From assembly GCF_009914755.1 (NCBI RefSeq), contig NC_060934.1: a stretch of 64,000 nt of DNA; one strand, 5' to 3'. This document shows positions 1,827 to 55,049 of this stretch, piece after piece. The position numbers were made by a program, and so were the translations under genes. Within the stretch, counting starts at the first letter, position 1, and each line of letters opens with the position of its first letter. A model generated the notes under the pieces. That model was not told where the DNA came from. It saw nothing but the letters and a program-made list of their open reading frames with translations, and ran no database searches. The DNA is from the human T2T-CHM13v2.0 reference genome, Homo sapiens.

Positions 1827-2381
<555 letters not shown>

Positions 2382-9040: not shown

Positions 9041-9044
9041 CCGA

Positions 9045-28477: not shown

Positions 28478-28484
28478 TATATAG
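28478..28484 (+). promoter_or_regulatory. TATA-like box of the spermadhesin-type exon 1 paralog
   Basis: TATATAG 63 bp upstream of the ATG at 28541, the same spacing as the 43862 copy. Confidence 0.6.
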
Positions 28485-28540
28485 CTCCAAGCCACCAGAG
28501 CTGTGCTCACTCCTGAGGCTGGTGCCAGGCTCTGCTCAGG

Positions 28541-28586
28541 ATGAGGCTGTCCAGAGCCTTCGCTTGGGCACTGCTGTGCAGTACAG
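28541..28586 (+). pseudogene. Spermadhesin-type signal-peptide exon 1 (MRLSRAFAWALLCST); own exons 2-4 deleted
   Basis: Near-identical to 43925-43970 with an intact cag|gtaatg donor. Near 28945 the homology jumps from intron 1 to the 3' flank. Confidence 0.85.
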
Positions 28587-31500
28587 GTAATGTGTGGCCC
28601 CCGAGCCCTCTGTCCTGGGCTTCTCTTTGCTTTCCTGTTCCACTCTGAGGTTGTTGTAGTTTGCTTTTTGCATAGGAAGAAGCTCATGGCTGATTGGCTG
28701 TGAGATACTCTCCTCCATACAAAATGTGTCACTTTCCCCTTAGTACTGGAGGAGGAAGGGACAGACAGGGATTGTTCTGGTCACTAGGCTGATGTCAGCA
28801 TGATTTTTAATGTTTCTCAGCTCTTGGATCTATGGGCCTCTTCCTTGCCTTAAGCAACTTAGGCTGAGATTCTACGGGGGGCAAGCCAGAAGTGGCTGAG
28901 AGAATGAGACACGGTCTTGCTTTGGAGGCGTTCCAGGTGGTGTGAGCATCTGCCAATGCTCCCCTGGCTCATGCAAGCCTGGCTCTGCACATGTTGGGCA
29001 GAGGCTGCACCTGTGACTGCAGAAATAAGATTGAGCCACAGTTTTCCTGCATCAGCCTTGGGTGAGGGAGAAGGAGTATGACCCAGTAACCCTTCCAGAA
29101 ACATACATGGATTCTGTTCCAGCATTTCTGTACACCTACTTCTTTGGGGTCAGTAGGTCAGATGTGAAAACTATTCTATCGTTCCTGTCCTTTTGATATT
29201 GGAGCATGTGTCTGTTAGACTCTATCTTCTTCCTCTTTGTTGATCTTATTATAAGCCCTATGGCATTTCCCAATGTATTTATGCGAAATGAGTAGCATAT
29301 GAACTTTATAATATCAAGGATGTATAATACCCAATGTCTATATAAGATATATAATCCTGGAAAAAATATATAAAATAAAGAAACTCATAACTCATGGAAT
29401 GTGATGACAGTTGGTGCCCTATGAATTACTCTCTGTACTGAAACACACAGCACACATTCCCCATCCCTAAAAGGCTTGTATTCAATTGAGGACTGAAACC
29501 AGCTCACACAGAGTCAAATAGCAGCACAAGAAGCAATGGCCCCCGACACCCCCACCAGGCAGCCGTGGCAGCTGCAGACACTGTGAGGTCTGGGGTTCAC
29601 CCAGCTGTGCTGTTCACACCAGGCTTCCCAGTGAGGTGGAGCTCAGGTCTGGCCTCCAGCATGGGGAGGTCTGGAAAGGCCGGAATAGGACGTGCTGAGC
29701 AGGTGCCGTGAGCAGAGGTGGAGTCACCCGAATGGGGTGAATTTAGGAACAAAGAGAACACAGAGAAAGGTGCTCCCTCCTTAGTCTGAGTGTTTCAGGA
29801 AGGGCAAAGCTCACCCTGGGGCCTGGGTTAGGCACATTTGAGCATGTTCAACTGCATTTCAGGCACATTGCTGAAGTGGCCGCTTCTTGCTTCACTATGC
29901 GTGAGGTCTCTCTGGGGACAGAAGAGGGCTTGGCTCCTGGTCTTTGTTCTAGATAGGTCTGGGCTTTTTCCAAGACACTTGGTGGGCCTTGGGGAGGCCC
30001 ACAGTCCTCCATGAATGTGATTTGGGGAGAGGAAGACACAGGGTCAGGGACCTTCCAGAACTGACCTTGCAGAGTTTCCCTCCACTCATGAAGCTGGAAG
30101 GAGCGTTTGGATCCTGTAAACCTCACATGAAGCGAGCATCTCTGTCGTGTCGTCTAAGTTGTTCTGAATGTTTGTCCTGGAGCTTGAAGGATTGCCTGAA
30201 ATTCACTGACACGTTTGGAGAGGAAAAACAAATCCTACTTTTATTTGCCCTTTCTGATTTTTCTAAATTAACAGATACAGAGGTGCTGCAGGCAGGCCTT
30301 GTCCTCTAGCTCTGGCATGCAGCGCACGGTCCCCTGGGATTTAGTGAGAGCAGATCCAGGTCTTTGATGGTCCCAGAGCACCCTGGAGTGGAATAATATG
30401 ATGGAACCAGCTGAGTCCTAGCTTCTGCTTAGCACGCTGATGTCTTTGGCTGGAAAGGGTCTAGGGAAACCCTGGCCAAAAAGGAGCCAAAGAAATAAAA
30501 ATAACAAGGCGCCTATGTCCATTCTCCTGCTGACTGACATGCGGCTCCAGGTCAGACCTTTCACCTCTGTCAACCACGATTTTCTCATTTATGAATTGGA
30601 GATAGAAACAGGTAACAAAGAAATAATAATGGTGAAGACCATTAAACACTTATTCAACACTCAACATTCTGTAGGTACTACATCAATAATTTCATACAGG
30701 TTGTCTAATTTCACCATGATTGGAACTTTTTGAATAGTAATAATTTTCCCAAAATTTTTAGGGTTTGAGAAAGTAAATAAGTTGCAAACAGCTTCCCTAG
30801 AGGCACATGCTGTCATGCTAGCTAGGACTGTGATGAGGGCCATTCTGATGCAGAGGCTGGGCTCCTGCCGCCATGTCTGTCACGAGTGTGAACCACAGAG
30901 CCACGTCTCCTGAGGGAGGCCCTGCGACTGCACCCAGAGCTCCTGCATCCAAGTCCGTGACACGTCCCTGAAATGGTGAGCCTTCCATAAATAAACGTGT
31001 CATTTCCCTTCACTTAACAATGTTATTCAAGTTGATTATTGATTTTATTATGAAATTTACAATAAGAAATGTTTAGAAAAGGTTTAGTGTGAAAAACTCT
31101 CCAGTTTTGCCCAGGATGAAAGGTTTCATGGACAAGTGATCTTCCACGCTAAAGCAACAAAAATCATCAAAACTAGGACAAGACAGTCCCCTTGATCAGA
31201 GCAGTTTTTCAGACTGTGGTGTCAGAATGTGGACTTTGAGTCGAACCGAGCAAGGAGAAAGCAGCAGTGAGTGAGCTGGGCCGTGAGTGCTGAGAGCCAT
31301 TCCTTCTTTCCTTGGGATGCAGGGCTGCTCCAGGGATGGGGACAGCGATATCCCCTCCTCTCCCTGCCCAGCTCTGTCCCTTTGCACTCAAGCTCCTCTT
31401 CATAGTGTGGTCATTTTCCATTCTTCTCCCTTGACCCATTGGTAACTTCGGCTTTTCATTTTGCTTTTCTGTTTTCATGATTATTCAGGAATAATCCATT

Positions 31501-32475
31501 TACCAACAATGACAAGAAGTAAACATGAGCAATATATATTCACCCTTTCCCTCTCCTCACACAAGGACTATGTATTTCTGAGTTGGACACCATATGTCTC
31601 GACAGGAAGTGTAGGACCTGAGCCTTTTTCTGGGCCAAAAGAATGTGGTACATGTATCTGAATATCAGCTTCAGCACTGATACAACTTCAGCTCAATCCT
31701 GAAACTTCTCTCTCCACACATGGTCTTCCTCTGTGTGTCCCTCAACTCCTTCCAGCCCCATGGAGCCCCCCTCTTTTCCTGCCTTCTCTGTAGCCTCACT
31801 GTGCAGAGAAAGGAGCCACCTCTCCACAGAGCTGTGTCCCAGGAGAATGGGAGCCTCTTCTAAACACCTGGAGTCCTAGAGAGCTGAGGGGCTGCTCCAT
31901 CCTCGGAGTCAGAGATGAAAGCCTTGAAGGAACAGGGAAGAACTGCAGCGTGGAGAGGGTGGGTCGGAGGGAGGAGAGGTTTCCTCCTGCTGCAGGCAGC
32001 CTGTTGATGGATGGATTCATTTACTTAGTGCTTAGCCAGTTGCTGGGTACCTGCTGGGCACTTTACACACCCGAACACATTTGCCCCCTTATGCGAGGTG
32101 CTACTTTCATCCTCACTGAACAGTGTTCTGGAACCGCACCCTCAGGTCTTACAGTGACATGGATTCTCATGTATGGGGGTGGTTAGGCCTCTCTGGGGGC
32201 AGGAACACTGCCTATTTGCTATTTTTTCTGGCCTCCTTAGGAAAAGACAATCAGAGTGGTAGAAAGGAGGTGTTCGTGCTGACTTTCTGTTTTCCACTGT
32301 GGCGGTGGGGTAGATGATAAAGAAGATTTGGTGAGGGGTGCTAAATTTCTTCTATTTCCCAGTGATCTAAAAGAAATTATACTACAAATGGGTGTGATAA
32401 CTCAAAATCTCTGAGTGTATGAAACAGAAGCCACATTAGTTTTGGGGGAATGGCTATCTGGTCACCAATTTCCTT

Positions 32476-32929: not shown

Positions 32930-33214
32930 GACCCGCTCAGTGTAGGAGTGTCCTTAGTGTAGGGGTGTCCTCAGTGTAGGGGTGTCCTCAGTGTGGGGGT
33001 GTCCTCGGTGTGGGGGTGTCCTCGGTGTGGGGGTGTCCTCGGTGTGGGGGTGTCCTCGGTGTGTGGGGTGTCCTCGGTGTGGGGGGTGTCCTCAGTGTGG
33101 GGGTTGTCCTCACGCATTCTCTGGGAAGGTTTTCAACTCAGGAACAAAACAGAATCTGTCTGGGCCATCCAGGTGAAACTAAAAGGAAATCTATCTGTTA
33201 TTTCCTTTCCTCAA
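32930..33214 (+). pseudogene. Spermadhesin-type CUBa pseudo-exon disrupted by a minisatellite and frameshifts
   Basis: ttgtag| acceptor and cctcaa|gtgagt donor in the same contexts as 47799-47934. Remnants QCGGVLT, SGKVFNSG and ESVWAIQVK lie in shifting frames. Confidence 0.85.
32936..33111. repeat. Minisatellite, 10 copies of 17-18 bp (ctcRgtgtgggggtgtc)
   Basis: Units counted directly. Confidence 0.95.
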
Positions 33215-35078
33215 GTGAGTGCTCAGGATGTGATTTCCTTTGTTGATGGTATAGTTTGCTGGGATGAAATCCACATGGCGTCTTGCCAGTTTACCCCCAC
33301 CCAACCCAGAGGCCTCTAAATAGAATTGGAGGCTTCCACTCCTGCTGCAAATGCATTTAGTGCCTCCCTGTCTTCCAGGTCAGGTGCTCTCTCCTTAGCC
33401 TGCATTGCAAAATACTTCCCAATGTGGCTCCTGGACCTCTCCTCCCCTCCACCCACTCCTGCCCTCGGCCCCCTCCACACTGGGGTTCCTGGCACCACCT
33501 GTGAAGCAGCTCCATGCCATTGCTCACACTGGGCTCTGATGAGAACGCCTACTTCTACCCCTGTCAGACTCATCTGCCCTATCCTTAGGGTCCTCTACGA
33601 GGATTTCATGATTCAGCTGGAGGCCCAGCTCTTCTGTAGTGTCTGCGTGACTCCTTCCCAGACGGGCAGAGCTCTTTCTTTTGCACCCTACTAGATACCT
33701 TCAGAAAAGGCCGAGTTGTCTTTTCAATGTACACCGACACTTGTTTCATTCTTTGACGCCACTGCAATGAAAGCTCTCTTTTGGGGTTCAAGGCAAAATT
33801 GTTAATGAATGAATACATGAATGAATGATTGAATGAATGAAAGCAGTGATAAGATCCCAGAAGGCAGAAAACCCTGTAGCATTTATACCCAAGACAGTCT
33901 GTTTTGATTGAGCATGGCAGCCACATTTCCATCAATTCCAGACAAAGCCAAACACAACCCAGGATGTGGATGAGAAAGATGATGGAATATATGTGACTAA
34001 GGTCCCCCTTTCCCTCCACACTGGCTTTTGGGCTGGGACCTCAAGGTTATGCAGGTGCTCTGTGTGACAAAGGACATCTTTTGGATGGCTGCCTCAGATA
34101 CAGAACTTAGACCATTTGCCCAACACGGGCTCCAGTGATTCTGAAAAAGGACTTGCAGCACAGGAGACCAAGATGGAGAAACAAGGAGAGAAGGAGGTTG
34201 GAGTTGGGAATTCCCTGTGCCACCATTTTTCCGGGCTCAGAAGGATTGGCAGCTCTGAACATTTTCCTGTATTGTCCTTTTGCCCTTTTCAAAGATTGGT
34301 TTTAGATCTCACTGTCCTTGGCATCAAGGAAGCACTCAGGCTGGGCCAAAAGCAAAACTAGTATGAAGTCAACCCTGTGTGTGTCCTAATGGGATATGTC
34401 TTAACTGTCTTCTCATACTTCAAATAAGCTGTAAACACTCTCCCATGTACATAAAGCTTGCTGGGGGCTAATTGAGGATGAGAGGTCAGGTTTGAAGACT
34501 GAAGGGGGTAAGAGGAGTGGGGAGACCCCTCAGGAGGGCGACATTCCATGTCCACAATATCTCACTGTAGGTAAGAAATGGAGGCCCCTCCCTGCCTTGA
34601 GTCAGGGAAGCCAAGCTTGGGCTGGGGACCCTTGTTGCCCCTCTATTTGCCAAGGGCAGGAATCACAGAGTGGCATCCACACACTCATGTCTGGAGCATC
34701 TCATCCTGACACAGAGGCTGTGGCTGAAAACACATGTCCCTGAGATGCAGATTTTGTAGCTTGTGGGGCCTGAAACACAGCTGGTGGCTGGAATTAAAAT
34801 TCCTGAGTGGTATTCCCATCCACAGGCAGGGCTTCCAAGGGCACTCGGAAGACGCCTGCAGTCCTGGTGAAGAAAACATTTATTTTATTCAGGGGTTATG
34901 GAAAGAGACTAATCTGTGTGCAGAAGAGCTGTTAGACTTTCCATTCCTTGCTCGCCCCGGGCCTTGCACTTCTGAGAAGTAAGCTAATGAGAGCTGGTGC
35001 CACTCGCTGGGGAGGAAGCTGCCTGCTGGAGTTAGGCTGATTCCAAATGCTGACACCTGTCAGTTCTCTGCCCCACAG

Positions 35079-35270
35079 CCTCACCTATGGGAGTGAACAG
35101 GTAGAAGTCTTGGATGGATCTCTGGGGTCCAGATCCCTGAGCAAAATGTGTAAAGATATGTCCCTGACCTACCAATCCTCTTCCAATATTATGACCATCA
35201 CATATAACAGAACTTTCAGCCAACCATCCACATTCTTTGTGGGATGCATATTACCATAGTGACTCAGAAG
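35079..35270 (+). pseudogene. Spermadhesin-type CUBb pseudo-exon
   Basis: cacag|; LTYGSEQVEVLDGSLGSRSLSKMCKDMSLTYQSSSNIMTITYNR aligns to 49890-50091. The conserved Cys is replaced by Tyr, there is a frameshift near 35240, and it ends at aag|gtaggt. Confidence 0.85.
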
Positions 35271-37094
35271 GTAGGTGGGGAAGGGGAAAACCTGCTGATT
35301 CTCCCCTTCTCTGTGGAAGCCAGCTGAGTGGCATGCTGCATATAGAGATGTTTCTGTGACTGCCAGAAAAAAAGGTGAGACCGCTTTCCAGTGGCCAAGT
35401 ATTGAGTACAGGTAGTACAAAAAATGCATTGGGACATACGATTATAGCCTGGAGCAACTCATGTTGACACATGAGTAGAATAATGCCCAGTCTGTATCCC
35501 CAGAGGCTTGTATTCAGTTGAGTACTGAAACCAGCTCACACAGAGTCAAGTGGCAGCACAAGAAGCAATGGCCCCCGACACGTCCACCAGGCAATGGGTG
35601 GAAGCTGCAGACACTGTGAGGTCTGAGGTCGGCCCCACATGCGCTGATCACACCAGGCTTCCCAGTGAGGTGGAGCTCAGGCCTGGCCTCCGGCATGGGG
35701 AGGTCTGGGAAGACTGCAAAGGACGTGCTGGGCAGGTTCCATGACCAGGAGTGGAGTCACCTGAGTGGGGCGAACTGAAGGACAAGGAGAGAGAGGCACT
35801 TCCTCATGGGCCCTGTAGGCATTGCTGGTGCAGAGATGTGTGCACTGGGGTGGTTTGGGGCAGGACGGCTGGGTGGAGCATTTGAGAGGCTCAGACATGA
35901 GGCTGGACCTCTTAGGGGTCTCCTTCCTGGAACATCCCCCCAGCTCTGTCAACTCCTCTCCAGCATGGGGGGCCCCTCTGCCCTCCCATCTGGGAAGCCT
36001 CACTGGGCAGGGAAAGGAGCTGCCTCTCCACAGAGCCTGTGTCCCATGGGGGACAGGAGCCTCCTCTAATCACCCAGAGTCTGGAGAGCGGACGGGCTGC
36101 TCCAACTTCAGAGTCAAAAGTGAGAGCTGTGAAGGAAAAGGGAAGAATCGCAGCATGGAGGATGCGGGCTGGGGGCAGGAGCAGTTTCCTTGTGATGCAG
36201 GCAGCTTATTCATTTATTTTTTACCAAGGACAGAGGACTTGCCAGGTACAGAACAAACCTTTTAAAATAGGAACATATTGGATCCTAGAACACCTCTTCC
36301 ATGCCACTTCTTTTTTAACTCCTCAGGTGACTGCGTCTCTCTCTCCTTTTGCCTCATCAGTCACCCCATGAAAATCTATAGTGGATTTTAGCATAAAATG
36401 TTACTTGCATTTTTATTTTTGTCTGCCACTATGGAAACTCTAACTTTGGGTTCAAGCCATATTTCCTAAATGAATGAATGTGTGACTAGTGTGATAAGAT
36501 CACGGAAGGCATTAGCAACATAGCAGTAAGTTACTGCCCTGCTATCCCAGGGCCATCATCATGGATTTTAACGTGGGAGTCACATTTCCATCAACTCCAG
36601 ACAAAGCCAAGGGCAGGCCACAGTAATGGATGAGAGACGTGATGAAATCTGAGTGACTAAGGGCTCCTCCCGCTCCAGAGGTGGAGTGGTGTCAGGACCC
36701 CCACTAAGTTTCTCGGGGCTTTCTAGGATGAAGGACACCTGGGAAATGGCTCTTACACGAGCAGTGCTACAACCCTCTACAAAACTTTGTTTTCATAAGG
36801 CAGCAAATAATGGTATGTTCATGAAGGTCATGATTCAGGGAACAGAGAGGAGTTTGAGGGGAGGACAGGGCTGAATGAGCCAGGCATTTCTTGTGTCGCT
36901 ATTTCTCCAGGGGTCAGAAGAGTGAGATGTTTGGAACATTTTCCTAAGGACCCTTTCCTTTTTCAAAGGTATTTTGGTTCTGACTGTCCCTGTCACCAAG
37001 AGGCTCAAGGTTCAGCCAGTAGGAAAACTCGTACAGAAGGTCCCCATATTTCTGCTGTTCTGAGATGTGCCCCTCTTATCTTCTTATCCTACAG

Positions 37095-37332
37095 AGCCTC
37101 TGGGCTCCCGCCTGGGAGCAGGAGATACACTGGGGGCTAAGTGAACACGAGGGGTGGTGGATCAGGCTGAAGTGTTGGCCTTGAAAAGTGCCTGGTCTGG
37201 CCAGGGCTGCAGGCCTTCTTCCTGGAGGACACGCTCTGCTCAGAACAGGGCTGCTCCTGTGGAGCTGCCCTAACAACAACTTGCTCTCCCATAACTGTGG
37301 CCATGGGTGAGGGGTTGGTGTTATCTGCTCAG
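37095..37332 (+). pseudogene. Degenerate SRCR exon of DMBT1 type
   Basis: The 3' part reads [29 protein letters not shown]...GVICS and ends atctgctcag|gtgggc, matching the end of the SRCR exon at 2322. The 5' part is decayed and its start is approximate. Confidence 0.8.
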
Positions 37333-37409
37333 GTGGGCTTCTAAGTCACTGGTCCTCTATTTTGTTTTGTAGTTTTCTTCAAGAAAGTGCTGAAAGGGCT
37401 CCAGTGCAT

Positions 37410-40003
37410 GGGGCCTTCTCACACATTTGGGCACATTTCCTTAATTTATGAGTACTCCTTTATTTTTAAGCCAATTTAGTACCTTCTGGCCACAACACAT
37501 AACAAAACAGATGTATGCACACATAAATACATCTGAGCACACATACACACTCATACAAAGATCCTATAGCTTTAACTTTGGAACTCTAGCCAAGAGATAT
37601 CTACACAAACTCACCAGCTTATCAAAAAATGGTTGGATGTAAGCAGTTGTTTTTATCTTAATACCAGTAGAATGGTCCTCTAAACTAGAAAAAATACATT
37701 TTCTTAAGCAAAAACCATATCCTTATGTTTTTGTTTCACCAAACACACATCTTATTCTCCTACTTCTCTAACTCCTAGTAACTCTAATTCCTAGTGAAAA
37801 TTCTAGGATTACTTAATTTAACATAACATGACTTTAAGATTTCAAATCAATAGAGAAAATTAAATTTACCAAATTAAACTTACCAAAGATGACCAAAGTC
37901 ATGTGAACTGAAAAGCCTCTGAACTAGTTTCTGTTAGTCCAATAAACACTTAGACTTTTCTTTAAGACAATTAATTAGAGTTCTTTAGACTTTAAGACAA
38001 TTAATTAGCGCTGTTTCATATAACTTGGTCGTGAAATATCACTTCACATGACACATACAGTTCTATAGACGGACACAGACAGAGGCAGATCTTAAACACT
38101 TTAGATTTTTCATTTGTGTGTTTTCAAAATTTTTCTGTCCCCTACTTCAGATTATTGGTCTCCTGATGATCTGTTCCAAGTCCAAAATAATTGTTAACGA
38201 AGCAACTCTAAATGTACAACTCCAAAGACATGACTTTGGTGAAATAGGGTAGAAAATGTACATCTCAAAGGCACAGACTTAGACCTAAACAAAGTCAAGG
38301 TCTGTTATGTAAACTTTAAGCCATTGTCTTCCCCCTAGTTAAGGTTCCTGGTGGTACAGATGCAGAGACAGAGATGCTCTTACAAAACGGAGATTTCCTT
38401 TAATGATGTAAATTTTCTTTACAAAATGTTTTTATTAAAGTGACTTAATTTGATAGGTGTTTTTATTTGTTTGTTTGTTTGTTTTTGAGACAGAGTCTCG
38501 CCCTGTTGCCCAGGCTAGAGTGCAGTGGCGCAATCTCGGCTCTCTGCAACCTCCGCCTCCTGGGTTCACGCCATTCTCCTGCCTCAGCCTCCTGAGTAGC
38601 TGGGAGTACAGAGGCCCGCCACCACGCCCAGCTAATGATAGGTGGTCTTTTAACTTAGCTTGATTAGATCACCGGCTTTAGGGTAAAGCTCTTTGGGGAA
38701 TGGGGCCAAGAATTCATGCATTTTTTAAGGACTAAACCACAATGTTCTTATTCAAATGTGTGAAGAAAAGAGTATCTCCCTGTAGTAATGACCATTTCCT
38801 GCCAACTGTCCTCAGCCACCCCTAAAATTGTAGCTATCTTCTGCCATTACACACACTAAAGTCAGATCCTCTCACAGTACAAGGTAATCTCTGGTACCCC
38901 CAAAAGCCAAAGAAACCAGGTAACGCAATACAAGACAGAAGAGCTTTAGACCTGAGAACAATCTGCCCATGACTGTTGAAACTCCACAAAGAAAGAACAC
39001 CCCTAAAAGGAGTGAGCGGTGCCTTTATCCTGAGCTCTTTAAGGGACCCAAATTATTAGAAGCCTTTCTAGATATGTTTTTCACTTGGTACTGAAGATGG
39101 CAACAGGGTGGAAGTAAGTGAAACAACAATTTTTAAGAAAGGAAGTGAACTGAGAAGCCAAGCACCTTTTTGTTTTTCTTTTTGCAGCTGTGGGGGATTT
39201 TAGCCAATTCAGAGGCCTCCATAATTTGGAATTCTTATCCGGATTTGACCAAGTCCAGTACAGTTGGTCAAATCCAATGGGAGAAAGACTGAAAAAAAAA
39301 CAGCGAAAAGCCAAACAATATGCTTATTCTTCTTATTCATATAGTTGTATTTTTTGGATGACTGAGGATGGCTATTTGGAGATTTTGGTGAGGTAGTAAA
39401 CTGAAGGAGCCAATATGTGCATGTTCCTCAGGGCCTCTGAGAAGTTGACATAGTCAGCATTTAGTCAAAGGGACCTTGAAGGTTTCTGTGTCACCACTTG
39501 CCCCACTGAACGCTCTAATGGTAAGGAGAAATTAAGACCAGCTGGTTATCAGTCTTAACTTTTAGTCATTAAGGAGACTTTTCAACACAATATCCCAATT
39601 CAGCTACTTACCTAGGAATGGGGCCCAGGCCGAAGATTGCTCTCTACCATCTTAGAAGCAGGAAAGAAACTCAAACTCACCTTCCCTTTTGCAAGTAAGC
39701 AGAGATTCCAGGAAGGACTTGCTCTCCTGTTTCCAATGTCATGGAAAGCAGGAAAACTTGCCTTCCCTGTTAGAAGTGAGTAAAACTCCAGAAAAGCAGT
39801 CGTATGGTGAAATACACCTTAGATCTCACCCAAGTTTGGGGGAGATCAGGGATTCTCTGGAGTGGGGAAGCTCCCAGGCCTCAGCAAATTGTCCCATTGG
39901 TTTGAGCAATAAAGATAGCCCAAGCCAGTACCAAGCACCCACAGGAGATTCATCAAAGGTCAGGGGCACCTCCACTCAGAGTCTCTTCAGTTGGTCGCCA
40001 ATT
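37410..40003 (-). mobile_element. ERV1 (MER4-group) internal sequence, degenerate
   Basis: Abuts the LTR through a PBS-like TTGGCGACC on the minus strand; non-coding. The left end is approximate. Confidence 0.6.
38460..38636 (-). mobile_element. 5'-truncated Alu (right monomer, young-type)
   Basis: Contains ttcacgccattctcc; TSD tgataggtg. Confidence 0.88.
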
Positions 40004-40702: not shown

Positions 40703-43700
40703 GAAGATAGATAACAAATAAGCATAGGAAAAGATACTGCCAAATGAAGATGGAATTTTTGTTGTAGTTACCAGCGTAAGGGCTTGGAGTTTAGCCATAG
40801 CCTGGCTTTCCATGATTTGATTTTCAGAAGCCCTGTCAATAGATTATGGTTACTTTACTCAATAACTACCATTTTATGTAAATCTTCAGGATGAGTGTTT
40901 CCCAAGCATAATGTTTTGCATATGTCCCTCTGCTTATTCTTGTAATTTAGATGGCTGTATTTTCTGATGGCTGTGGCTGGCTTCTGGAGACTTTGGTGAG
41001 GCAGTAAATAGAAGGACCCACATGCACATGTGCCTCAGGGCCTCTGAGAAGTTGACATAGTCAGCATTTTGTCAAAGGGACGTTGGAGGTTTCTGTGGCG
41101 CCACCTGCCCAAGCTGTTTGGAATCTCCCAAATGAGGTGCCATGGCAGGTCTGCTCAGCCTGGGGGATTTTAGCAGGTGATGGATGGTTCTCATTCTTCT
41201 AAGACTCTCTAAAGAGCAAGCACTTTAATTTCTGGTATTCAAGGGGCCTTGAAGAGCTTAGGATATTTTCAGCTACATGAACAAAAACCTCATCTCAAAT
41301 TGACTTAAACAATGAGGACAGGGATTGATGCCTGTGTCTGGACAATGCAGAGGCTTTAGGGCTGACATCAGCAGCAGCTCTGGTGTGGCCTTCCCACCAT
41401 TGCCTTGCTCTGCAGCTCTGCCAGTTGGCTTCATCCTCATCCTGGTAGCAAGGGGGAGCAGCCATGTCTGCCTCCCTCTGAGTCACACCTTCCTTTGATG
41501 CCATTGGACCAATCTGGGTCACATACTCAAGTCCGCATCCATCACTGATGCAGAGGGTGAGCCTTCTGTCACCATCCATGCCACCTTCCTACTCTACTCA
41601 GGCCAGCATTTGGAGCTAGGCTTGGAGCCAGTTGCTCCTAGGACACATTGGGTATGCTGGGTGAGAATAGATACCTGGAAAAAGTTGGGGTTTTTTGTTT
41701 CCAACTGGGAAATCATGCTAGGGAGACAACACAAAAAATGCCCATCAGACCCTAAAATTCTTCCTGGTAAAGTAAAAGTAAGGGTGGTGGGGAGGCAGAT
41801 AATGGCAGACCTGGAACAGAGGAGACCAGTTGGACAGTTCTGACACTGTGGATGGCATCAGTCACAGGGGTCTTTGAACAAGGTGCAGAGAATTACTAAC
41901 CTCTCCTGGAGAAGCAGAGGACAGGTCTGAGTGCAGCAGGCTATGAGAGAAGAACATACAAAGGGAAATAAACAAATCCACTTAGGGCTAGATAGGAGCA
42001 AGGGACGACCTGGGAGGATAAAGATCTGAGGGACGCAAATCCTCAGAAGCTGGTGCTAACCCAAATCTTTCCTCCAAGCTGACATCGTGAGTTGGGGCAC
42101 CTAAGACTTTGGTTTCCAGGGTCCTCCAGAAAAGATACTAGGTCTTTGTTCCTTCAGACAGCCACAGCCATGCGGGGACGATGCTGGAAGACATGTAGCC
42201 ATCCTGACACATTGGAGCCCATGGCAGGATCCTTGGGCTGGGGTACAAGAGGAAGGAAGCATCCTCTCCATGGGCTCCAGCATTTGCTCCATCTGGGCAT
42301 TCACATCCAATTGTGGGGAGCTTTGACCTCTTCCCAGCCCAGGGCCAGGGGTAGGGTGAATGAGGGGTAATGGGACAGGGTATCTGGAGTAAGAGGAGGA
42401 AGGAGAATTGTGAGGAAGTATTGCAGTTTACTTTGGTAATACATGGGGACTTAACACTAAAACAGCCTTTTTCAGTGACTTCTGAGTAGGGAGAAACAAC
42501 TGGGCTCCCAGCCCAGCAGTGTCGGTCTGTTCTACTTGAGTTGGAAAGCCCCTTCACACTGTGAACCCATCATGGCCTGTGCAAACAAAGTTGTGGGAAA
42601 TAAAGGCCGAGGGTGGCTTCTTTGATCCATAAGAAGACGAGTGATGCAATACAAGATTGCCCTGAAGATATGAACAGGCATTTCTGAAAGAGCTGTAGTG
42701 GGAGTGGAGGCATTGAAAGGGTGCCAGCCCCACTGGACTTTGGGGAAATGCATTTTATAACATTAGGTATTATTTCCATCATATTTGATTACAAGACATA
42801 TTAAAAGATGTGACAAAATCAGGAGTTGGTTAGAGTTTAGGAAAATGGGTCCTCATGAAGTCCTGGTTGTTGTATAAATTGGTCACAGTCTTTGGTTGAC
42901 AAATTGGCTTGCATTCCTTCATATGGCTGAATAAATTCCCATTATGGCTATACCAAGTTTTCTTCATCTGTTTCTCAGTTGATATTAGATAGTTTCCCTC
43001 TTTGGCTAATATAAGCAATGTTACTATGAACATTCATGTACAAATTTATATCTAGACATATGCTGTTAATTCTCTTTAGCATACAGCTAGTGGAATTGCT
43101 AGACCATAAAGGAACTCTCTGTGTAACCTTCTAAGAAATTTCCAGCCTGTTCTCCACAGAAGCCTCTTTTAACCATGACCCTGCCCTGGGACTGAGCCAT
43201 GTGGATCCTGGCATGACACATGGGTAATACAGGCAGACACAGGTACTCATGCCATCTACCTGGACATTCCTACATGGGTGGGCCTATCCCTGCAGTGGCC
43301 CCACTGTGACCCACTCACACATTGATCTGCTCAAGGGCCTGATTTCATGCCTTTGCTCTCCTGTGACACAGAGAGGGCTGTGGGAGAGATGGGCAGTCAG
43401 GAGTTCGGGACCTCACCCTGGTTCTGCCCCTGATGCCCTGTGACTTTGGGAAAGTCTCCTGGTTCTCTCTGGGTCTCGGATCTTCAGCTTTCCAAGGACT
43501 CCTGGCCTGCCTCACCTCTGGGGTGTTGTGAGGCTTCCGCAACATAATACAGCTGCAGATGCTACAAGTTAACCCAAAGAAAGAGGGCTGCCCCAGTAGG
43601 AGATCACAGATTGAGGCCAGCTTGTGATACTTCCCTTGAGTCTGCCTGGGCGGAAAGGAGAAGGAGCACCTGGCCATTATATCTCTGTCTAGGTGAAACC

Positions 43701-43861
43701 TGGAACCTGGCTGAGAAAGATCAGTGTTGATTAGCATCTAGCCACACCTCATCCCTCCCTCTCTAGACCACCCAGGTGATCCTGCAGCACCCTCAGATCC
43801 TACAGCTTGGCCAATCTTGGCTCCAGATGGGAGGGAGAAGATCAGATTTCATGGGTGTTTC

Positions 43862-43868
43862 TATATAA
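43862..43868 (+). promoter_or_regulatory. TATA box of the spermadhesin-family gene
   Basis: TATATAA 63 bp upstream of the ATG at 43925. Confidence 0.7.
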
Positions 43869-43924
43869 CCCCAAGCCACCAGAGCTGAGCTCACTCCTGA
43901 GGTTGGTGCCAGGCCCTGCTGAGG

Positions 43925-43970
43925 ATGAGGCTGTCCAGAGCCTTCGCTTGGCCGCTGCTGTGCAGTATAG
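43925..43970 (+). CDS. SPADH: Spermadhesin-family gene exon 1, signal peptide MRLSRAFAWPLLCSI
   Basis: aggATGA start context and tag|gtaacg phase-1 donor. Resembles recalled ungulate spermadhesin leaders (MKLxSAIxWALLxST). Symbol recalled from memory. Confidence 0.82.
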
Positions 43971-46683: not shown

Positions 46684-46713
46684 CCACAACTGTTAAAGCT
46701 CCATTTGCCACAG
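46684..46713 (+). CDS. SPADH: Spermadhesin-family gene exon 2 (ATTVKAPFAT)
   Basis: T-rich tract, ttcag|CCAC...ACAG|gtaaat; 30 bp, phase 1/1. Confidence 0.78.
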
Positions 46714-47798: not shown

Positions 47799-47934
47799 CA
47801 CCCAGTGACTGTGGGGGCCACTACACAGATGAATATGGCAGGATCTTCAACTACGCTGGGCCGAAAACTGAATGCGTCTGGATCATCGAGTTGAACCCCG
47901 GGGAGATAGTCACGGTGGCCATTCCAGACCTCAA
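47799..47934 (+). CDS. SPADH: Spermadhesin-family gene exon 3, CUB N-half
   Basis: ttgtag| acceptor and aa|gtgagt donor. Encodes APSDCGGHYTDEYGRIFNYAGPKTECVWIIELNPGEIVTVAIPDL, with the YxGPKTxCVW spermadhesin signature. Confidence 0.9.
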
Positions 47935-49889: not shown

Positions 49890-50091
49890 AGGATTCGCAT
49901 GTGGCAAAGAATACGTGGAAGTGCTGGATGGACCTCCAGGGTCTGAGTCCTTGGACAGGATTTGTAAAGCCTTCAGTACATTCTATTACTCTTCTTCCAA
50001 CATCATCACCATCAAGTACTCCAGAGAACCCAGTCATCCACCCACCTTCTTTGAAATATATTACTTTGTTGACGCTTGGTCAACACATTAA
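49890..50091 (+). CDS. SPADH: Spermadhesin-family gene exon 4, CUB C-half and stop
   Basis: cccag| acceptor. Encodes KGFACGKEYVEVLDGPPGSESLDRICKAFSTFYYSSSNIITIKYSREPSHPPTFFEIYYFVDAWSTH*. Spliced CDS is 46+30+136+202=414 nt, 137 aa. Confidence 0.88.
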
Positions 50092-51754
50092 TAGGAAGAT
50101 CGGGGGAAGAGGCACCTGCTGATGCTCCCCTGCTCTGCCTGAGCCTGGTTCTGCATATGTTGGACAGAGGCTATACCTGGGACTGCAGAAATAAGATTGA
50201 GTCATAGTTCTCCTGGATCAGCATTGGGTGAGGGAGAGGGAATGTGACCCTGTGACCCTTCCAGAAAAAGGTACGGGTTCTGTCTCAGCATTTCTGTACA
50301 CCCACATCTTTAGTGTTAGAAGATCATATGTGAAAACTTTATCTTTCCTGTCTTCTTGATATAGAAGTGGGTATCTCTGAGAAGCCATCTTTCTCTCTAT
50401 TGATCTTATTATATGCCCTGTAGCATTTTCTAGTGTATTTCTGCAAAGTGAGTAGTATATGAACTATATACTATAAGGAATGTATAATACACATATTCTA
50501 TATGAATATATAATCCTAGAAAATATATATAAACAAGAAATATATATTATATATACATAAAATATATATAAATAAGAAACTTGTGCCTCCTGGACTGAGA
50601 TTATACTTGGTGCCCTATGAGTCTCTGGACACACTGAAATACACAGCACACACTCCCCATCCCTAAGAGACTTGTATTCAGTTGAGGACTGAAACCAGCT
50701 TGCATAGAGTCAAACAGCAGCACAAGAAGCAATGGCCCCTGACACCCCCATCAGGCAGTGGGTGACAGCTGCAGACACTGTGAGGTCTGGGGTTCACCCA
50801 GCTATGCTGTTCACACCAGGCTTCCCAGTGAGGTGGAGCTCAGGTCTGGCCTCCAGCATGGGGAGGTCTGGAAAGGCCGGAATAGGACATGCTGAGCAGG
50901 TGCTGTGAGCAGAGGTGGAGTCACCCGAATGGGGTGAATTTAGGAACAAAGAGAACACAGAGAAAGGTGCCCCCTCCATCTTTCTGAGTGTTTCAGAAAG
51001 GGCAGAGCTCCCAGTGGGGCCTGTGTTGGGCACATTTGAGTGCATTTCAGGCACATCGCTGAAGTGGCTACTTCTTCCTTCACCATGGGTGAGGTCTATC
51101 TGGGGACAGAAGAAGGCTTGGCTCCTGGTCTTGGTTCTGGATGAGTCCAGTTTTTTTTGTTGTTTTGTTTTTTTTTCCCCGGGATACTTGGTCAGTCCCC
51201 AGGAGGCCCACAGTCCTCCCTGAATGTGACCAGGGGAGAGGAGGACACAGGGTCAGGGACCTTCCAGAGCTGACCTTGTGGAGTTTCCCTCCACCCTTGA
51301 AGCTGGAAGGAGCATCTGGACCCTGTAAACCTCACATGAAGCAAGCATCTCTGTCTGTCATCTAAGTTGTTCCAGAATGTTTGTCTTGGAGCTTGAAGGA
51401 TCACCTGAAACTCACATGTTTGAAGAAAAAAAAAAACAAATCCTAGTTTTGGTTGGCTTTTCTGGTTTTTCTAAATGTACAGATATGGAGACACAGCAGG
51501 AGGACTTGTCCTCTAGCTCTGGTGCACAGCACACGGTAGCCTGGGACTTTGTGTGAGCAGGTCAGGTCTTTAATGTTCCAAGAGCATCTTGGAGTAGAAT
51601 AATACAATGTGACCAGCTGAACATGACTTCTGCTTAGCGTGCTGATGTCTTTGACTGGAAAAGGTCCAGGGAAACCCTGGACAAAAAGCAGAGTCAAAGA
51701 AAAATAACAAGCTACCTGTGTCCATTCTGTTGCTGAGTGACGTGCGGCTCCAGG

Positions 51755-53329: not shown

Positions 53330-53659
<330 letters not shown>

Positions 53660-55049
53660 TAGGATTTGAGAAAGTTAGTTGAAAATAACTTCTCCAGAGG
53701 CACACACTGTCATGCCAGCTAGGACTGTGACGAGGGCCATCTGATGCAGAGGCTGGGCTCCTGCCAACACGTCCATCATGAGTGCGAGCCACAGAGTCAT
53801 GTCCCAGAGGGAGGCCCTGTGACTGCACTCAGGGCTCCTGCATTCAAGTCCATGACAGGTCCCTGAAATGGTGAAAATTTCATAAATTAAGATGGCTTAT
53901 TTCTCCTAACTCCAAAAAAAAATCGTATTCAATAGGTTTACTTCAACATTAGGTTGATTATTGGTCTCATTACAGAATTTAAAACAAGAAATATTCAGGT
54001 GAGCATTAGATTGGCTGATTTTTCTGGTTTGCCCGGAATAAGAGGTTTCAGGGACAGGAGAATTTCAGTCCTAAACAACAAACGTTATCAAAAACTAGGA
54101 CGTGAAGGTTGCCTTGGTCAGGGCTGACTTTTCTGTCTGTGGCTCCAGAGTGGGGATATTGTACTTTGAGTGGAATCAAAGAAACAAGAAGAAAGCAGTG
54201 AGTGAGCTGGTCTGTAAATGCTGAGAGCCAGTCCTTCTTTCCTCCCTGCCCCTGAGGGACCCAGCGTTGCTCCCAGGGATGGGGACAGCGATGCCACCTC
54301 CTCTCCCTGCTCAGCTCCATCTCTTTGCACTCAAGTCCCTTTTCACAGTGTGGTCATTATTGATTCTCCTGCCTTGACCTACAGCTAACTCCCAGCTTGG
54401 CATTTTGTTTTTTGTTTTGTGTCCTTTTATGGAAAATCAATTAGCCAAGAAGGATATGAGGTAAATGTGGGCAATCTAATTTCATGCTTTCATTCTTCTC
54501 ACAAGGAGGCTTTGCATTTTCAGGTTGGAATCCAAACAGCTCACCCCTAAAAATCATGTTCTGAGACATGTTCTTGGCCAAAGAAAAGTGGAATAAGTAA
54601 CTGACTATCTGCTTAAGCACTTCACAATCCCTAGATCACCCTCCCTACCAGGTGCTCACCACTATTTCCTCCCTGTTCCTCCTCCCCTCTCCCTCTGCAA
54701 CTCCAAGTCCTAGGGACCTTCCTCTGCCCTCCCTTCTGGGCAGCTTCCTGGGCAGAGAAAGTGGCCACCTCCTCCAGAGCCTGTTCCCAGGAGAGGAGAC
54801 TCCTGTAAACCCCTGAAGTCTGGAGAGCTGAGGAACGGCTCCATCCTCAGTGTCAGAGATGAGAGCATTGAAGGAAGAGCGAAGAACTGCAGCATGGAGG
54901 GTGCTGGTTGGAGGGAGGAGAGTTTTTCTCAGGATATAGGGGACTTCCAAAGTGTTTATCCACCTAGTGCTTAAAAGGCAGAAATTATGGGCTCAATTAT
55001 GGGCTAAGTGCTTTACAAATAAGAACACAATTGATCCTAGATCACCCAC

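What the first reader, a model, noticed from the sequence alone, without database searches (positions are those of the whole stretch)
32930..37332. Fossil CUBa-CUBb-SRCR array: a possible link between DMBT1-like genes and spermadhesins
Seen: two spermadhesin-type CUB pseudo-exons whose introns are homologous to those of the intact gene, followed by a DMBT1-type SRCR pseudo-exon. This is the same order and splice phases as DMBT1 CUB1a-CUB1b-SRCR at 881-2322. Corrected for a frameshift, the CUBb relic reads FF..DAYYHSDSE and ends in a phase-1 donor aag|gtaggt (35270). At the aligned position the intact gene has TAA and no donor, and the downstream sequences still align (aacctgctgattctcccc vs cacctgctgatgctcccc). 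Inference: spermadhesins arose by truncation of a multi-module CUB/SRCR gene, with former intron becoming 3' UTR.
Basis: partly seen in the sequence, partly recalled or inferred. Interest (0 to 1): 0.75.

Follow-up and report, generated by a model that had tools for sequence, protein, structure and literature searches.

The report
Decayed spermadhesin CUB units plus SRCR fragment
This stretch of human chromosome 10 holds the dead remains of extra spermadhesin-type CUB modules next to half of a DMBT1-type SRCR exon, and together with a rabbit six-CUB gene model it suggests that the single-domain spermadhesin gene SPADH is the cut-off first module of a once longer multi-CUB gene.

Summary
The CUBa relic (33113-33214) and the CUBb relic (35079-35270) are real. 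They are collinear with SPADH from exon 3 to past its stop codon (nhmmer E 2.5e-212).

The SRCR relic is real only for its 3' half, 37173-37332, plus about 55 nt of intron (E 3.3e-33). The claimed 5' part and its acceptor are SPADH-intron-3-like DNA from a third, exon-less spermadhesin unit (35908-37172). So CUBa-CUBb-SRCR is a juxtaposition across a rearrangement joint, not one preserved exon order.

- The relic donor AAG|GTAGGT lies exactly at the conserved end of CUBb exons.
- Predicted rabbit proteins join six spermadhesin-type CUBs in frame at that point.
- SPADH carries a 14-nt insertion and GA in place of the donor GT there.
- Units 2 and 3 have no signal-peptide exon of their own.

The lost downstream partner was therefore most likely another CUB unit, not an SRCR exon.

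In trees, spermadhesin-type CUBs are sister to the first CUB of DMBT1L1 orthologues. That gene is an intact SRCR/CUB gene in many mammals. Interest is moderate.

The parts
28541..28586 (+). Relic of SPADH exon 1 (signal-peptide coding part) in copy A. ATG, open frame and donor GT are kept. Exons 2-4 of this first unit are deleted at 28945|28946.
   Evidence: tblastn 13 of 14 residues, E 1.8e-4. 93% DNA identity over 141 nt, including a TATA-like motif. The deletion follows from blastn: 26122-28945 matches 41596-44340, then 28946-30610 matches 50112-51813. Only two exon-1 copies occur in the window.
28946..30774 (+). Copy-A version of 'F', the DNA that follows SPADH exon 4 (3' UTR and flank). 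In the multi-CUB reading this is the former intron between units 1 and 2.
   Evidence: blastn 80.7% to 50112-51813 and 81.8% to 53113-53335. K80 distance 0.18.
31489..31518 (+). Relic of the 30-nt mini-exon (SPADH exon 2 type) of unit 2. Acceptor cag, donor gtaaac, the 30-nt length and an open frame are all kept.
   Evidence: Alignment; coordinates and translation.
32936..33112 (+). 17-bp minisatellite (10.2 copies) that replaces the 5' half and the acceptor of the CUBa relic. Its unit resembles the CUBa stretch that encodes SDCGG.
   Evidence: Tandem Repeats Finder; alignment to SPADH exon 3.
33113..33214 (+). CUBa pseudo-exon (3' part) of unit 2. One frameshift. Donor CTCAA|gtgagt kept, as in SPADH exon 3.
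   Evidence: nhmmer collinearity with SPADH; alignment; frames. Protein-level signal alone is not significant.
33215..35078 (+). Homologue of SPADH intron 3.
   Evidence: blastn 33830-34836 matches 48558-49625; nhmmer; 71% identity, K80 0.37.
35079..35270 (+). CUBb pseudo-exon of unit 2. Phase-2 acceptor kept. A 4-nt insertion shifts the frame, and the first conserved Cys is replaced by Tyr. Ends in a phase-1 donor AAG|GTAGGT.
   Evidence: tblastn E 2.7e-14; Pfam CUB E 0.02; frames and ends. One of only 2 AGGTRRGT sites on the + strand of 64 kb.
35271..35900 (+). F', homologue of the SPADH 3' UTR and flank. A former inter-unit intron in the preferred reading.
   Evidence: nhmmer 35208-35409 matches 50022-50231, 35483-35888 matches 50646-51042, and 35488-35828 matches 29455-29799.
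35908..37172 (+). Unit 3 (A3). It holds pieces homologous to SPADH intron 2 and intron 3. The 1.1 kb that would hold CUBa is deleted at about 36306|36310. The unit is cut off inside intron 3.
   Evidence: nhmmer 35908-36306 matches 46884-47307 and 36310-37192 matches 48393-49263 (E 4e-71). It also matches unit 2 and B2.
37173..37332 (+). 3' half (160 of about 321 nt) of a DMBT1-type SRCR exon. It holds one in-frame TGA and reads [25 protein letters not shown].
   Evidence: SRCR DNA profile E 3.3e-33; 70-78% identity to 9 DMBT1 SRCR exons; tblastn E 1.45e-4; Pfam SRCR E 0.014; translation.
37333..37386 (+). Start of the intron that follows SRCR exons in DMBT1 (donor GT kept).
   Evidence: The profile alignment runs to 37386. 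Beyond that, global alignments fall to 40-53% identity.
50089..50096 (+). SPADH stop codon TAA (50089-50091) and the former exon end 50094|50095, where GA stands in place of the donor GT. A 14-nt insertion just upstream sets the frame in which TAA is read.
   Evidence: Five-way alignment of CUBb exon ends; sequence.
54431..54460 (+). Dead mini-exon relic of unit 2 in copy B (B2). The acceptor is lost and there are in-frame stops. No CUB relics were found downstream of it.
   Evidence: Alignment; translation. blastn 46095-47093 matches 53859-54857. tblastn with the rabbit protein finds no further CUB relic in the window.

Best explanation
The interval is part of a decayed tandem array of spermadhesin-type CUB units. 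Each unit consists of a 30-nt mini-exon, a CUBa exon, a CUBb exon and inter-unit DNA ('F').

Before a roughly 15.7-kb segmental duplication, the locus read: promoter and signal-peptide exon, unit 1, F, unit 2, F', unit 3. The duplication made copy A (about 25.1-40.7 kb) and copy B (from 40.7 kb).
- Copy B kept unit 1, which is the annotated SPADH gene, and lost the CUB exons of unit 2.
- Copy A lost unit 1 and kept unit 2 as the CUBa and CUBb relics of this finding.
- Unit 3 of copy A has no exons left. A rearrangement fused it, inside its intron-3-like DNA, to the 3' half of a DMBT1-type SRCR exon at 37172|37173.

Units 2 and 3 never had a signal-peptide exon. The unit-2 CUBb exon ends in a strong phase-1 donor at the conserved CUBb exon end. 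I therefore infer that the ancestral locus was one multi-CUB gene, as still predicted in rabbit. SPADH then became a single-CUB gene when its CUBb donor was lost (GT to GA, plus a 14-nt insertion that brings TAA into frame), and former intron became 3' UTR.

Shown: the homologies, the junction, the splice-site states and the tree positions. Inferred: that the units were once spliced together, and the order of events.
For: Collinearity of unit 2 with SPADH:
- It runs from intron 1 to 0.95 kb past the stop codon.

Unit 3:
- It is collinear with SPADH introns 2 and 3 and ends at the SRCR joint.
- The SRCR profile matches only from 37173 onward. It finds nothing in SPADH intron 3 or in unit 2, even with filters off at E up to 1000.

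Signal-peptide exon:
- The exon-1 region matches at only two places in the window, 28311-28716 and itself.

Mini-exon of unit 2:
- It keeps both splice sites, its 30-nt length and an open frame.

The relic donor:
- It aligns column for column with the donors of DMBT1L1 CUB-A and DMBT1 CUB1b. SPADH has GA there and a 14-nt insertion upstream.
- AGGTRRGT occurs only twice on the + strand of the 64-kb window (7 on both strands, against 10.9 expected from shuffles). A chance hit within 10 nt of the exon end is therefore of the order of 0.001.

Rabbit proteins:
- P0001 (727 aa, from nr) and P0007 (562 aa, from UniRef) come from two sources. They join spermadhesin-type CUBs in frame, with linkers of 0 or exactly 10 residues and one N-terminal signal peptide.
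- The third rabbit CUB ends DAYYHSDLKE and then runs into the next CUB. The human relic reads DAYYHSDSE and then its donor.

Trees:
- SPADH groups with rabbit CUB1 (99/90).
- All spermadhesin-type CUBs, including the relic, form one clade (99/87).
- That clade is sister to the CUB-A clade of DMBT1L1 orthologues, with joint support 100/99.

Distances:
- Copy A against copy B gives K80 0.18-0.29.
- Unit against unit gives 0.37-0.65.
- This fits unit duplication before the A/B duplication.
Against: - The rabbit multi-CUB proteins are gene predictions. I could not see the rabbit genome or transcripts, and tandem single-CUB genes can be fused by annotation pipelines.
- From passages read, spermadhesins in pig and cattle are described as seminal-plasma proteins, with duplications in ungulates (PMC10850435, PMC3434135). 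From recall, they are separate single-CUB genes. The multi-CUB state could therefore be derived in rabbit.
- The position of the relic among rabbit CUB2-6 is unresolved, so 'unit 2' cannot be matched to a particular rabbit module.
- Both A1 and B carry a promoter-like region and exon 1, as a cluster of separate genes would.
- The database search for further multi-CUB spermadhesin-like proteins found only rabbit: 2 of 11 hits, the rest being DMBT1, CUZD1 or cubilin-like at 27-37% identity. That search is word-limited.
- The 4-nt frameshift correction makes the phase argument partly circular.
Confidence: 0.62

Rival explanations
1. The three relics are consecutive exons of one ancestral DMBT1-like gene (CUBa-CUBb-SRCR), and spermadhesins arose when that gene was truncated after CUBb. 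On this view the third unit and the half-exon state come from a later tandem duplication of the CUB unit, followed by a deletion that ran from intron 3 of the second copy into the SRCR exon.
For: - All three relics are on the same strand and in the order CUBa, CUBb, SRCR.
- The SRCR piece keeps its donor and the start of its intron.
- The nearest relative of spermadhesin-type CUBs, CUB-A of DMBT1L1, is followed by an SRCR domain. This holds in human DNA (exons at 143144-143290, 145791-145981, then SRCR at 148792) and in the mouse and opossum proteins.
- A duplication followed by a deletion would give the observed joint.
Against: - Only the 3' 160 nt of the SRCR exon is present. The supposed acceptor lies in DNA homologous to SPADH intron 3.
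- 1.26 kb of a third spermadhesin unit lies between F' and the SRCR piece.
- The SRCR piece is 71-75% identical to the repeated DMBT1 SRCR exons upstream of SRCR14. It is only 60% identical to SRCR14 and 56% to the SRCR after DMBT1L1 CUB-A. It does not look like the cognate partner of this CUB.
- Copy B has no counterpart of the SRCR piece.
- In the rabbit models the module after each CUBb is another CUB or mini-exon, and no SRCR is present.
Confidence: 0.15
2. The relics are ordinary dead copies from a cluster of independent single-CUB spermadhesin genes, as in pig. The donor-like site after the CUBb relic is a by-product of decay, the rabbit multi-CUB proteins are annotation fusions, and the SRCR fragment is unrelated debris from the neighbouring DMBT1 repeats.
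For: - A passage in PMC10850435, citing Haase et al. 2005, states that inactive copies of boar spermadhesin genes exist in the human genome.
- A passage in PMC3434135 reports spermadhesin duplications in ungulates and pseudogenes in dog.
- Two promoter and exon-1 copies exist in the window.
- The SRCR piece sits at a rearrangement joint.
Against: - Units 2 and 3 have no exon-1 copy. They begin inside intron-1-like or intron-2-like DNA.
- The donor lies at exactly the conserved exon end and is a rare strong motif.
- Reading through the relic donor finds no nearby in-frame stop codon (reading).
- The rabbit joints fall at the same position, with 0- or 10-residue linkers that match the mini-exon length.
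Confidence: 0.15
3. An SRCR exon was an original part of spermadhesin intron 3 (order CUBa-SRCR-CUBb). It is best kept in unit 3 and has decayed in SPADH and in unit 2.
For: The homology of unit 3 with SPADH intron 3 runs right up to the SRCR piece, and the two nhmmer alignments overlap by about 20-35 nt.
Against: - The SRCR DNA profile finds nothing in SPADH intron 3 (48990-49900) or in unit 2 (34250-35080), even with filters off and E up to 1000.
- After the joint, SPADH and unit 2 go on aligning with each other while unit 3 departs from both.
- No known CUB gene carries a domain exon inside the CUB split (general knowledge).
Confidence: 0.03

Closest known systems
SPADH (spermadhesin family member, AQN-1-like), window 43893-50537
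   Same: - Same exon types: mini-exon, CUBa, CUBb.
- Same splice phases.
- Homologous introns and 3' flank.
- 60% protein identity in CUBb.
- Same clade in the trees.
   Different: - The relic unit has no signal-peptide exon of its own directly upstream. The nearest exon-1 relic lies 2.9 kb before its mini-exon, across a copy of the SPADH 3' flank.
- CUBa is half replaced by a minisatellite.
- CUBb has a frameshift and has lost a Cys.
- The relic ends in a donor where SPADH has a stop codon.
Rabbit predicted six-CUB protein ('cubilin isoform X2', P0001; also UniRef A0A5F9CDK0, P0007)
   Same: - Built only of spermadhesin-type CUBs.
- CUB1 is the orthologue of SPADH (99/90).
- The joints between CUBs fall where the human relic has its donor.
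- The 10-residue linkers match the mini-exon length.
   Different: - It is an open, multi-module prediction, whereas the human units are dead and rearranged.
- Its reality as one transcript was not checked.
DMBT1L1 / 'putative DMBT1-like protein' / Cdcp3: first CUB (CUB-A), human exons at window-relative 143144-143290 and 145791-145981
   Same: - Sister group of spermadhesin-type CUBs (100/99). An AU test rejects grouping it with the other DMBT1L1 CUBs, p 0.011.
- Two-exon CUB with phases 1/2/1, and its donor is in the same alignment column as the relic donor.
- Shares motifs such as ILDGPP and the YY(Y) end.
   Different: - It is an internal module flanked by SRCR domains in a large gene conserved from marsupials to placentals (80 hits).
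- It evolves slowly.
- No intron homology with SPADH was detectable.
DMBT1 CUB1a-CUB1b-SRCR14 (window 881-2322)
   Same: Same exon phases and the same position of the CUBb exon end. The SRCR piece is of DMBT1 type.
   Different: - The CUBs are only 30-39% identical to the relic or to SPADH, with no DNA-level similarity.
- The SRCR piece is nearer to the repeated DMBT1 SRCR exons upstream of SRCR14 than to SRCR14 itself.

Membership tests
Spermadhesin-type CUB unit (as a pseudogene) | Sequence homology of both CUB half-exons to a spermadhesin CUB | tested here: met
   CUBb: tblastn E 2.7e-14, 60% identity. CUBa: DNA collinearity only, within a match of E 2.5e-212. Pfam CUB is below its cut-off for CUBb (E 0.02) and absent for CUBa.
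Spermadhesin-type CUB unit (as a pseudogene) | Groups with spermadhesins and not with other CUBs in a tree | tested here: met
   Clade of SPADH, two primate orthologues, rabbit CUB1-6 and the relic, support 99/87 (53 rows). SPADH plus relic 98/95 in the 15-row tree.
Spermadhesin-type CUB unit (as a pseudogene) | Two-exon CUB with intron phases 1, 2 and 1, and homologous introns | tested here: met
   Phases. The CUBb length is 3n+2 only after discounting a 4-nt insertion. Introns are homologous.
Functional spermadhesin gene | Open reading frame with a signal peptide, both conserved Cys pairs and a stop codon after the CUB | tested here: not met
   Frameshifts in both relics, CUBa 5' half lost to a minisatellite, Cys to Tyr at the start of CUBb, and no stop codon before the donor.
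DMBT1-type SRCR exon | Homology to SRCR group B exons of DMBT1 | tested here: met
   37173-37386: DNA profile E 3.3e-33. 70-78% identity to 9 of 9 other matches, all DMBT1 SRCR exons. Pfam SRCR E 0.014, below its cut-off.
DMBT1-type SRCR exon | Complete exon of about 321 nt with its own acceptor | tested here: not met
   The match covers profile positions 209-427 only. 37095-37172 is homologous to SPADH intron 3.
One DMBT1-like gene with consecutive exons CUBa-CUBb-SRCR | The exons are separated by single introns, and the SRCR is the cognate partner of the CUB | tested here: not met
   A third spermadhesin unit lies between them. The SRCR piece is 71-75% identical to the repeated DMBT1 SRCR exons upstream of SRCR14, against 60% to SRCR14 and 56% to the SRCR after DMBT1L1 CUB-A.
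Multi-CUB spermadhesin-like gene (rabbit type) | CUBb exons spliced in frame to the next mini-exon or CUBa; one leader exon for several units | tested here: inconclusive
   For it: a donor at the right place, intact mini-exon splice sites, and no extra exon-1 copies. No transcript evidence exists, and the rabbit models are predictions.

The most novel reading that the evidence does not exclude
Spermadhesins are fragments of a once larger secreted multi-CUB gene. That gene was born from the first CUB module (CUB-A) of the SRCR/CUB gene DMBT1L1 (Cdcp3), and rabbit still carries a six-CUB version. Human SPADH is its first module, cut off by loss of the CUBb donor so that former intron became 3' UTR. 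The relics at 31.5-37.2 kb are its later modules.
Probability: 0.45. Interest if true: 0.55.

Novelty: new member of a known kind. Interest (0 to 1): 0.42.

Why it matters
Spermadhesins are textbook single-CUB seminal-plasma proteins, and their origin is not spelled out in the papers I could search. If the reading holds, this locus is a worked example of gene birth by cutting a module out of a multi-domain gene. It offers three preserved stages:
- an intact SRCR/CUB parent type (DMBT1L1 orthologues);
- a predicted multi-CUB intermediate (rabbit);
- a truncated single-CUB gene (SPADH), with dead sister modules beside it.

It also refines the annotation of the DMBT1-SPADH interval. That interval holds an exon-1 relic, a mini-exon relic, two CUB half-exon relics and half an SRCR exon, none of which is in the RefSeq table supplied with the finding. 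The practical importance is modest, and no new mechanism is involved.

Tried and rejected
1. SRCR as an original part of spermadhesin intron 3. Rejected: the SRCR DNA profile gives no hit in SPADH intron 3 or in unit 2, with filters off and E up to 1000.

2. Using intron similarity to argue that the SRCR piece is a recent copy of DMBT1. Dropped: beyond about 55 nt the intron aligns at only 40-53%.

3. Further spermadhesin-type CUB relics. Searches with SPADH, the DMBT1 C-terminal part, the rabbit six-CUB protein and several DMBT1-like proteins found none in the window beyond SPADH and unit 2.

4. Assigning the relic to one particular rabbit CUB. Unresolved: it falls in a polytomy, with CUBb identities of 46-54% to CUB1-5 and 40% to CUB6.

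5. Homology of SPADH exon 2 to the 30-nt DMBT1 exon at 3902-3931. This was only an impression from the translations ('APF'). No significant match was obtained, and I make no claim.

6. Fetching the CUZD1 region and the rest of DMBT1L1. A single CUZD1-region CUB from an already fetched locus (L036) served as an outgroup instead.

7. Homologue search with the whole spliced SPADH protein.

9. Haase et al. 2005 (Gene 352:20) is not held. I know it only through a citing passage in PMC10850435, so it may already describe these human relics or discuss the origin of the family.

10. Literature searches found no paper that links spermadhesins to DMBT1L1/Cdcp3, or that describes a rabbit multi-CUB spermadhesin. 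The searches were: 'spermadhesin'+'DMBT1'; 'spermadhesin'+'pseudogene'+'human'+'evolution'; 'spermadhesin gene family'; 'spermadhesin'+'CUB domain'+'exon'+'ancestral'; 'spermadhesin'+'rabbit' (only 15 of 95 listed and seen by title and abstract start); 'DMBT1L1'/'Cdcp3'/'DMBT1-like protein'. The library lacks most subscription journals.

Full report
**Setting**

The window is human chr10 (T2T-CHM13). It holds the 3' end of DMBT1 (to 14779) and SPADH (43893-50537). I rebuilt the SPADH coding exons and their phases from the supplied table:
- exon 1 carries the signal peptide;
- exon 2 is a 30-nt mini-exon (phase 1 to 1);
- exon 3 is CUBa (phase 1 to 2);
- exon 4 is CUBb (phase 2, ending in TAA).

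DMBT1 CUB1a, CUB1b and SRCR14 have phases 1/2, 2/1 and 1/1.

**The CUB relics are real**

- tblastn with SPADH finds the CUBb relic at 35089-35238 (60% identity, E 2.7e-14).
- The CUBa relic is not significant at protein level (E 1.1; no Pfam hit).
- At DNA level, SPADH 47810-50231 aligns in one piece with 33096-35409 (nhmmer E 2.5e-212). That piece covers CUBa, the whole intron, CUBb and 140 nt past the stop codon.
- The CUBa relic keeps the donor CTCAA|gtgagt. Its 5' half and acceptor are replaced by a 17-bp minisatellite of 10.2 copies at 32936-33112. The repeat unit resembles the CUBa stretch that encodes SDCGG.
- The CUBb relic starts after a good acceptor at 35079, in phase 2. It has a 4-nt insertion near its end and a Tyr in place of the first conserved Cys. 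It ends at 35270 with AAG|GTAGGT.
- Pfam CUB matches it at E 0.02, below the gathering score.

**The SRCR relic is only half an exon**

- tblastn with the DMBT1 C-terminal part matches 37245-37364 (47.5% identity, E 1.45e-4). The frame reads [25 protein letters not shown].
- A search of the whole genome with 37000-37420 returned 10 places. One was the query itself. The other nine were DMBT1 SRCR exons at 70-78% identity, all covering only query positions 187-353, which is window 37186-37352.
- I built a DNA profile from eight of those exons plus SRCR14, with flanks. It hits the window twice: at SRCR14 and at 37173-37386 (E 3.3e-33). The second hit covers profile positions 209-427 of 469, which is the last 160 nt or so of the exon and about 55 nt of the following intron.
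Window 36310-37192 aligns with SPADH intron 3 at 48393-49263 (E 4e-71) and with the unit-2 intron at 33671-34503.
- With all filters off and E up to 1000, the SRCR profile finds nothing in SPADH intron 3 or in the unit-2 intron.
- After the joint, SPADH and unit 2 continue to align with each other while this copy departs from both.
- There is therefore a rearrangement joint at 37172|37173, between spermadhesin intron-3-like DNA and the middle of an SRCR exon.

**What lies between and around the relics**

Self-comparison shows a nested repeat structure. I use these labels: copy A is about 25.1-40.7 kb and copy B starts at 40.7 kb. A1, A2 and A3 are units 1-3 of copy A, and B1 and B2 are units 1-2 of copy B. 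'F' is the DNA that follows SPADH exon 4 (3' UTR and flank).

- Copy A matches copy B from the upstream region through exon 1: 26122-28945 matches 41596-44340. The exon-1 relic has its ATG at 28541 and matches 13 of 14 residues. Promoter and exon 1 are 93% identical, and the donor is kept.
- At 28945|28946 copy A jumps to the DNA just after the SPADH stop codon (28946-30610 matches 50112-51813). The first unit's exons 2-4 are therefore deleted in A.
- After this F segment, both copies continue with a second unit that starts inside intron-1-like DNA. A 30759-31986 matches B 53660-54930, and both match SPADH 46095-47093.
- In A this second unit is the one with the relics. It has a mini-exon relic at 31489-31518 with cag/gtaaac splice sites, 30 nt and an open frame, followed by CUBa, CUBb and a second F copy (35271-35900).
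- In B the second unit has a dead mini-exon at 54431-54460, and no CUB relics were found.
- In A a third unit follows. 35908-36306 matches intron 2 and 36310-37192 matches intron 3. The 1.1 kb that would hold CUBa is deleted, and the unit ends at the SRCR joint.
- The exon-1 region has only two copies in the window, so units 2 and 3 have no leader exon.
- K80 distances are 0.18-0.29 between A and B, against 0.37-0.65 between units. This fits unit duplication first and the A/B duplication later.
- Converting these distances to years would need an assumed rate. I only say that all of these events are old. The tree agrees: SPADH and rabbit CUB1 are orthologues to the exclusion of the relic.

**The donor after the CUBb relic**

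I aligned the ends of five CUBb exons.
- The relic's AAG|GTA, DMBT1L1 CUB-A's AAG|GTA and DMBT1 CUB1b's GCG|GTA fall in the same columns. Each lies five codons and one base after the YY/WY motif.
- SPADH has TAG|GAA there, with GA in place of GT at 50095-50096.
- SPADH also has a 14-nt insertion just upstream. That insertion sets the frame in which TAA (50089-50091) is read.
- Downstream, the relic and the SPADH 3' UTR still align.
- AGGTRRGT occurs only twice on the + strand of the 64-kb window: at 12554 and at this site. A chance strong donor within 10 nt of this point is unlikely, of the order of 0.001 by my estimate from that count.
- Reading through the relic donor gives no nearby stop codon.

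**Evidence from other species**

- A database search with SPADH exon 4, given by reference, returned 6 proteins. They were the human protein, four primate 'AQN-1-like' or CUB proteins, and a rabbit 727-residue prediction named 'cubilin isoform X2' (P0001).
- The rabbit sequence has one signal peptide and six spermadhesin-type CUBs. They are joined with linkers of 0, 10, 0, 10 and 10 residues, and 10 residues is the size of the mini-exon.
- Its third CUB ends ...TFFDAYYHSDLKE and runs straight into the next CUB. The human relic reads ...TFF..DAYYHSDSE followed by the donor.
- A second rabbit entry from another source (P0007, 562 aa) is also multi-CUB.
- Both rabbit entries are predictions. I could not check transcripts or the rabbit genome.
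- No other species gave such a protein in that word-limited search. The other 9 of 11 hits were DMBT1, CUZD1 or cubilin-like proteins at 27-37% identity.

**Where spermadhesin-type CUBs come from**

- In the human genome, the third-best match to SPADH CUBb, after itself and the relic, is an exon inside the transcribed pseudogene DMBT1L1 (44% identity, E 1.4e-5).
- That exon lies at window-relative 145791-145981. It has a phase-2 acceptor, a phase-1 donor and one in-frame TAA.
- Its CUBa partner lies at 143144-143290 with a GTAAGT donor. The pair sits between SRCR exons at 139083 and 148792.
- A search with this exon returned 80 proteins at E up to 0.001. Nearly all of the named ones are large DMBT1-like proteins with SRCR and CUB domains, many also with a ZP domain. 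They come from primates, bats, carnivores, ungulates, rodents (mouse 'putative DMBT1-like protein', rat 'DMBT1 like 1', 'Cdcp3'), elephant, manatee and two marsupials, at 63-98% identity.
- In the mouse and opossum proteins this first CUB is followed by a linker and an SRCR domain.

Trees:
- CUBb exons only, 29 rows: SPADH plus relic 98/86, with the DMBT1L1 exon as sister 100/96.
- Whole CUBs, 15 rows: the same grouping, 98/95 and 100/99.
- 53 rows, adding the rabbit CUBs, two primate orthologues and the CUBs of ten DMBT1L1 orthologues. Spermadhesin-type CUBs form a clade (99/87), sister to the CUB-A clade (87/92, marsupials included), with joint support 100/99. SPADH groups with rabbit CUB1 (99/90). 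The relic is unresolved among rabbit CUB2-6.
- Forcing all DMBT1L1 CUBs together costs 21.9 log-likelihood units (AU p 0.011). I named that group after seeing the tree.
- The spermadhesin branches are long, so attraction between long branches cannot be fully excluded. The CUB-A branches are short, however.

**Affinity of the SRCR piece**

Over its 160 exonic bases, identity is:
- 71-75% to five of the repeated DMBT1 SRCR exons that lie upstream of SRCR14;
- 60% to SRCR14;
- 52-60% to four DMBT1L1 SRCR exons, including 56% to the one that follows CUB-A.

So it is not the obvious partner of a spermadhesin-type CUB. Concerted evolution of the DMBT1 repeats weakens this argument. Copy B has no counterpart of the piece.

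**Conclusion**

- The array CUBa-CUBb-SRCR is not one fossil gene. A third, exon-less spermadhesin unit lies between CUBb and the SRCR piece, and the SRCR piece is a half exon at a rearrangement joint.
- The best-supported reading is a decayed multi-unit spermadhesin locus, probably once a multi-CUB gene. SPADH is its truncated first module.
- The idea that former intron became 3' UTR is supported.
- The link to multi-module SRCR/CUB genes is supported too, but through CUB-A of DMBT1L1 and not through the local SRCR fragment.

**What is in print**

- A passage in PMC10850435, citing Haase et al. 2005, says that inactive copies of boar spermadhesin genes exist in the human genome and that the region is lost in mouse and rat.
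- A passage in PMC3434135 mentions duplications in ungulates and pseudogenes in dog.
- I could not read Haase et al. 2005.
- Six searches found nothing that links spermadhesins with DMBT1L1/Cdcp3 or that describes a rabbit multi-CUB form.

Noticed in passing
window 62535-62764 (+): Relic of the last coding exon of a DMBT1/CUZD1-type gene, on the same strand as SPADH, between SPADH and C10orf120. Against the human DMBT1 C-terminal part it covers residues 568-645 in two frames, E 4.8e-7. Against a turtle DMBT1-like protein it gives E 8e-9. No DNA-level similarity to DMBT1 exon 14165-14441 was found. It hints that a further DMBT1-like gene once ended here.
   Followed up: partly
window 51755-53171 (+): 59-bp tandem array of about 23 copies (85-98% alike) about 1.7 kb downstream of the SPADH stop codon. 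Copy A has a single unit, at 30552-30610.
   Followed up: no
window 29455-29799 vs 50646-51000, and 28476-28615 vs 43860-44000: Two pieces are much more alike between copies A and B than their surroundings. A 345-nt part of the SPADH 3' flank is 94% identical (K80 0.064), against 84% for the whole flank and 77% upstream. The TATA-like promoter plus exon 1 is 93% identical. This points to gene conversion or constraint. A third copy of the flank piece, at 35488-35828, abuts the RefSeq 'enhancer' 35738-36238.
   Followed up: no
window 8958-9041 (+): A short CUB2-like relic inside a DMBT1 intron, after the first ZP exon. It matches DMBT1 C-terminal residues 281-311 at 55% identity, E 4e-5.
   Followed up: no
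G000 chr10, window-relative 100-174 kb (loci L021-L028): The DMBT1L1 region carries SRCR exons well upstream of the annotated span (from about 100.5 kb). Within and after the span the exon order is: SRCR, CUB-A, SRCR, SRCR, CUB-B, SRCR, CUB-C, SRCR, SRCR. Human CUB-A has one in-frame TAA.
   Followed up: partly
protein P0006 (Piliocolobus tephrosceles, UniRef): A 145-residue model that starts as SPADH (CUBa and most of CUBb) and ends with the C-terminal stretch of DMBT1L1 CUB-A (NFIAYYYSAPK), then reads through its donor. It is probably a chimeric gene model.
   Followed up: no
window 39318-39505 (+): A third copy of a 185-bp piece that otherwise marks the start of copies A (25247-25420) and B (40929-41112). 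It lies just before the A/B boundary and may mark the duplication junction.
   Followed up: no
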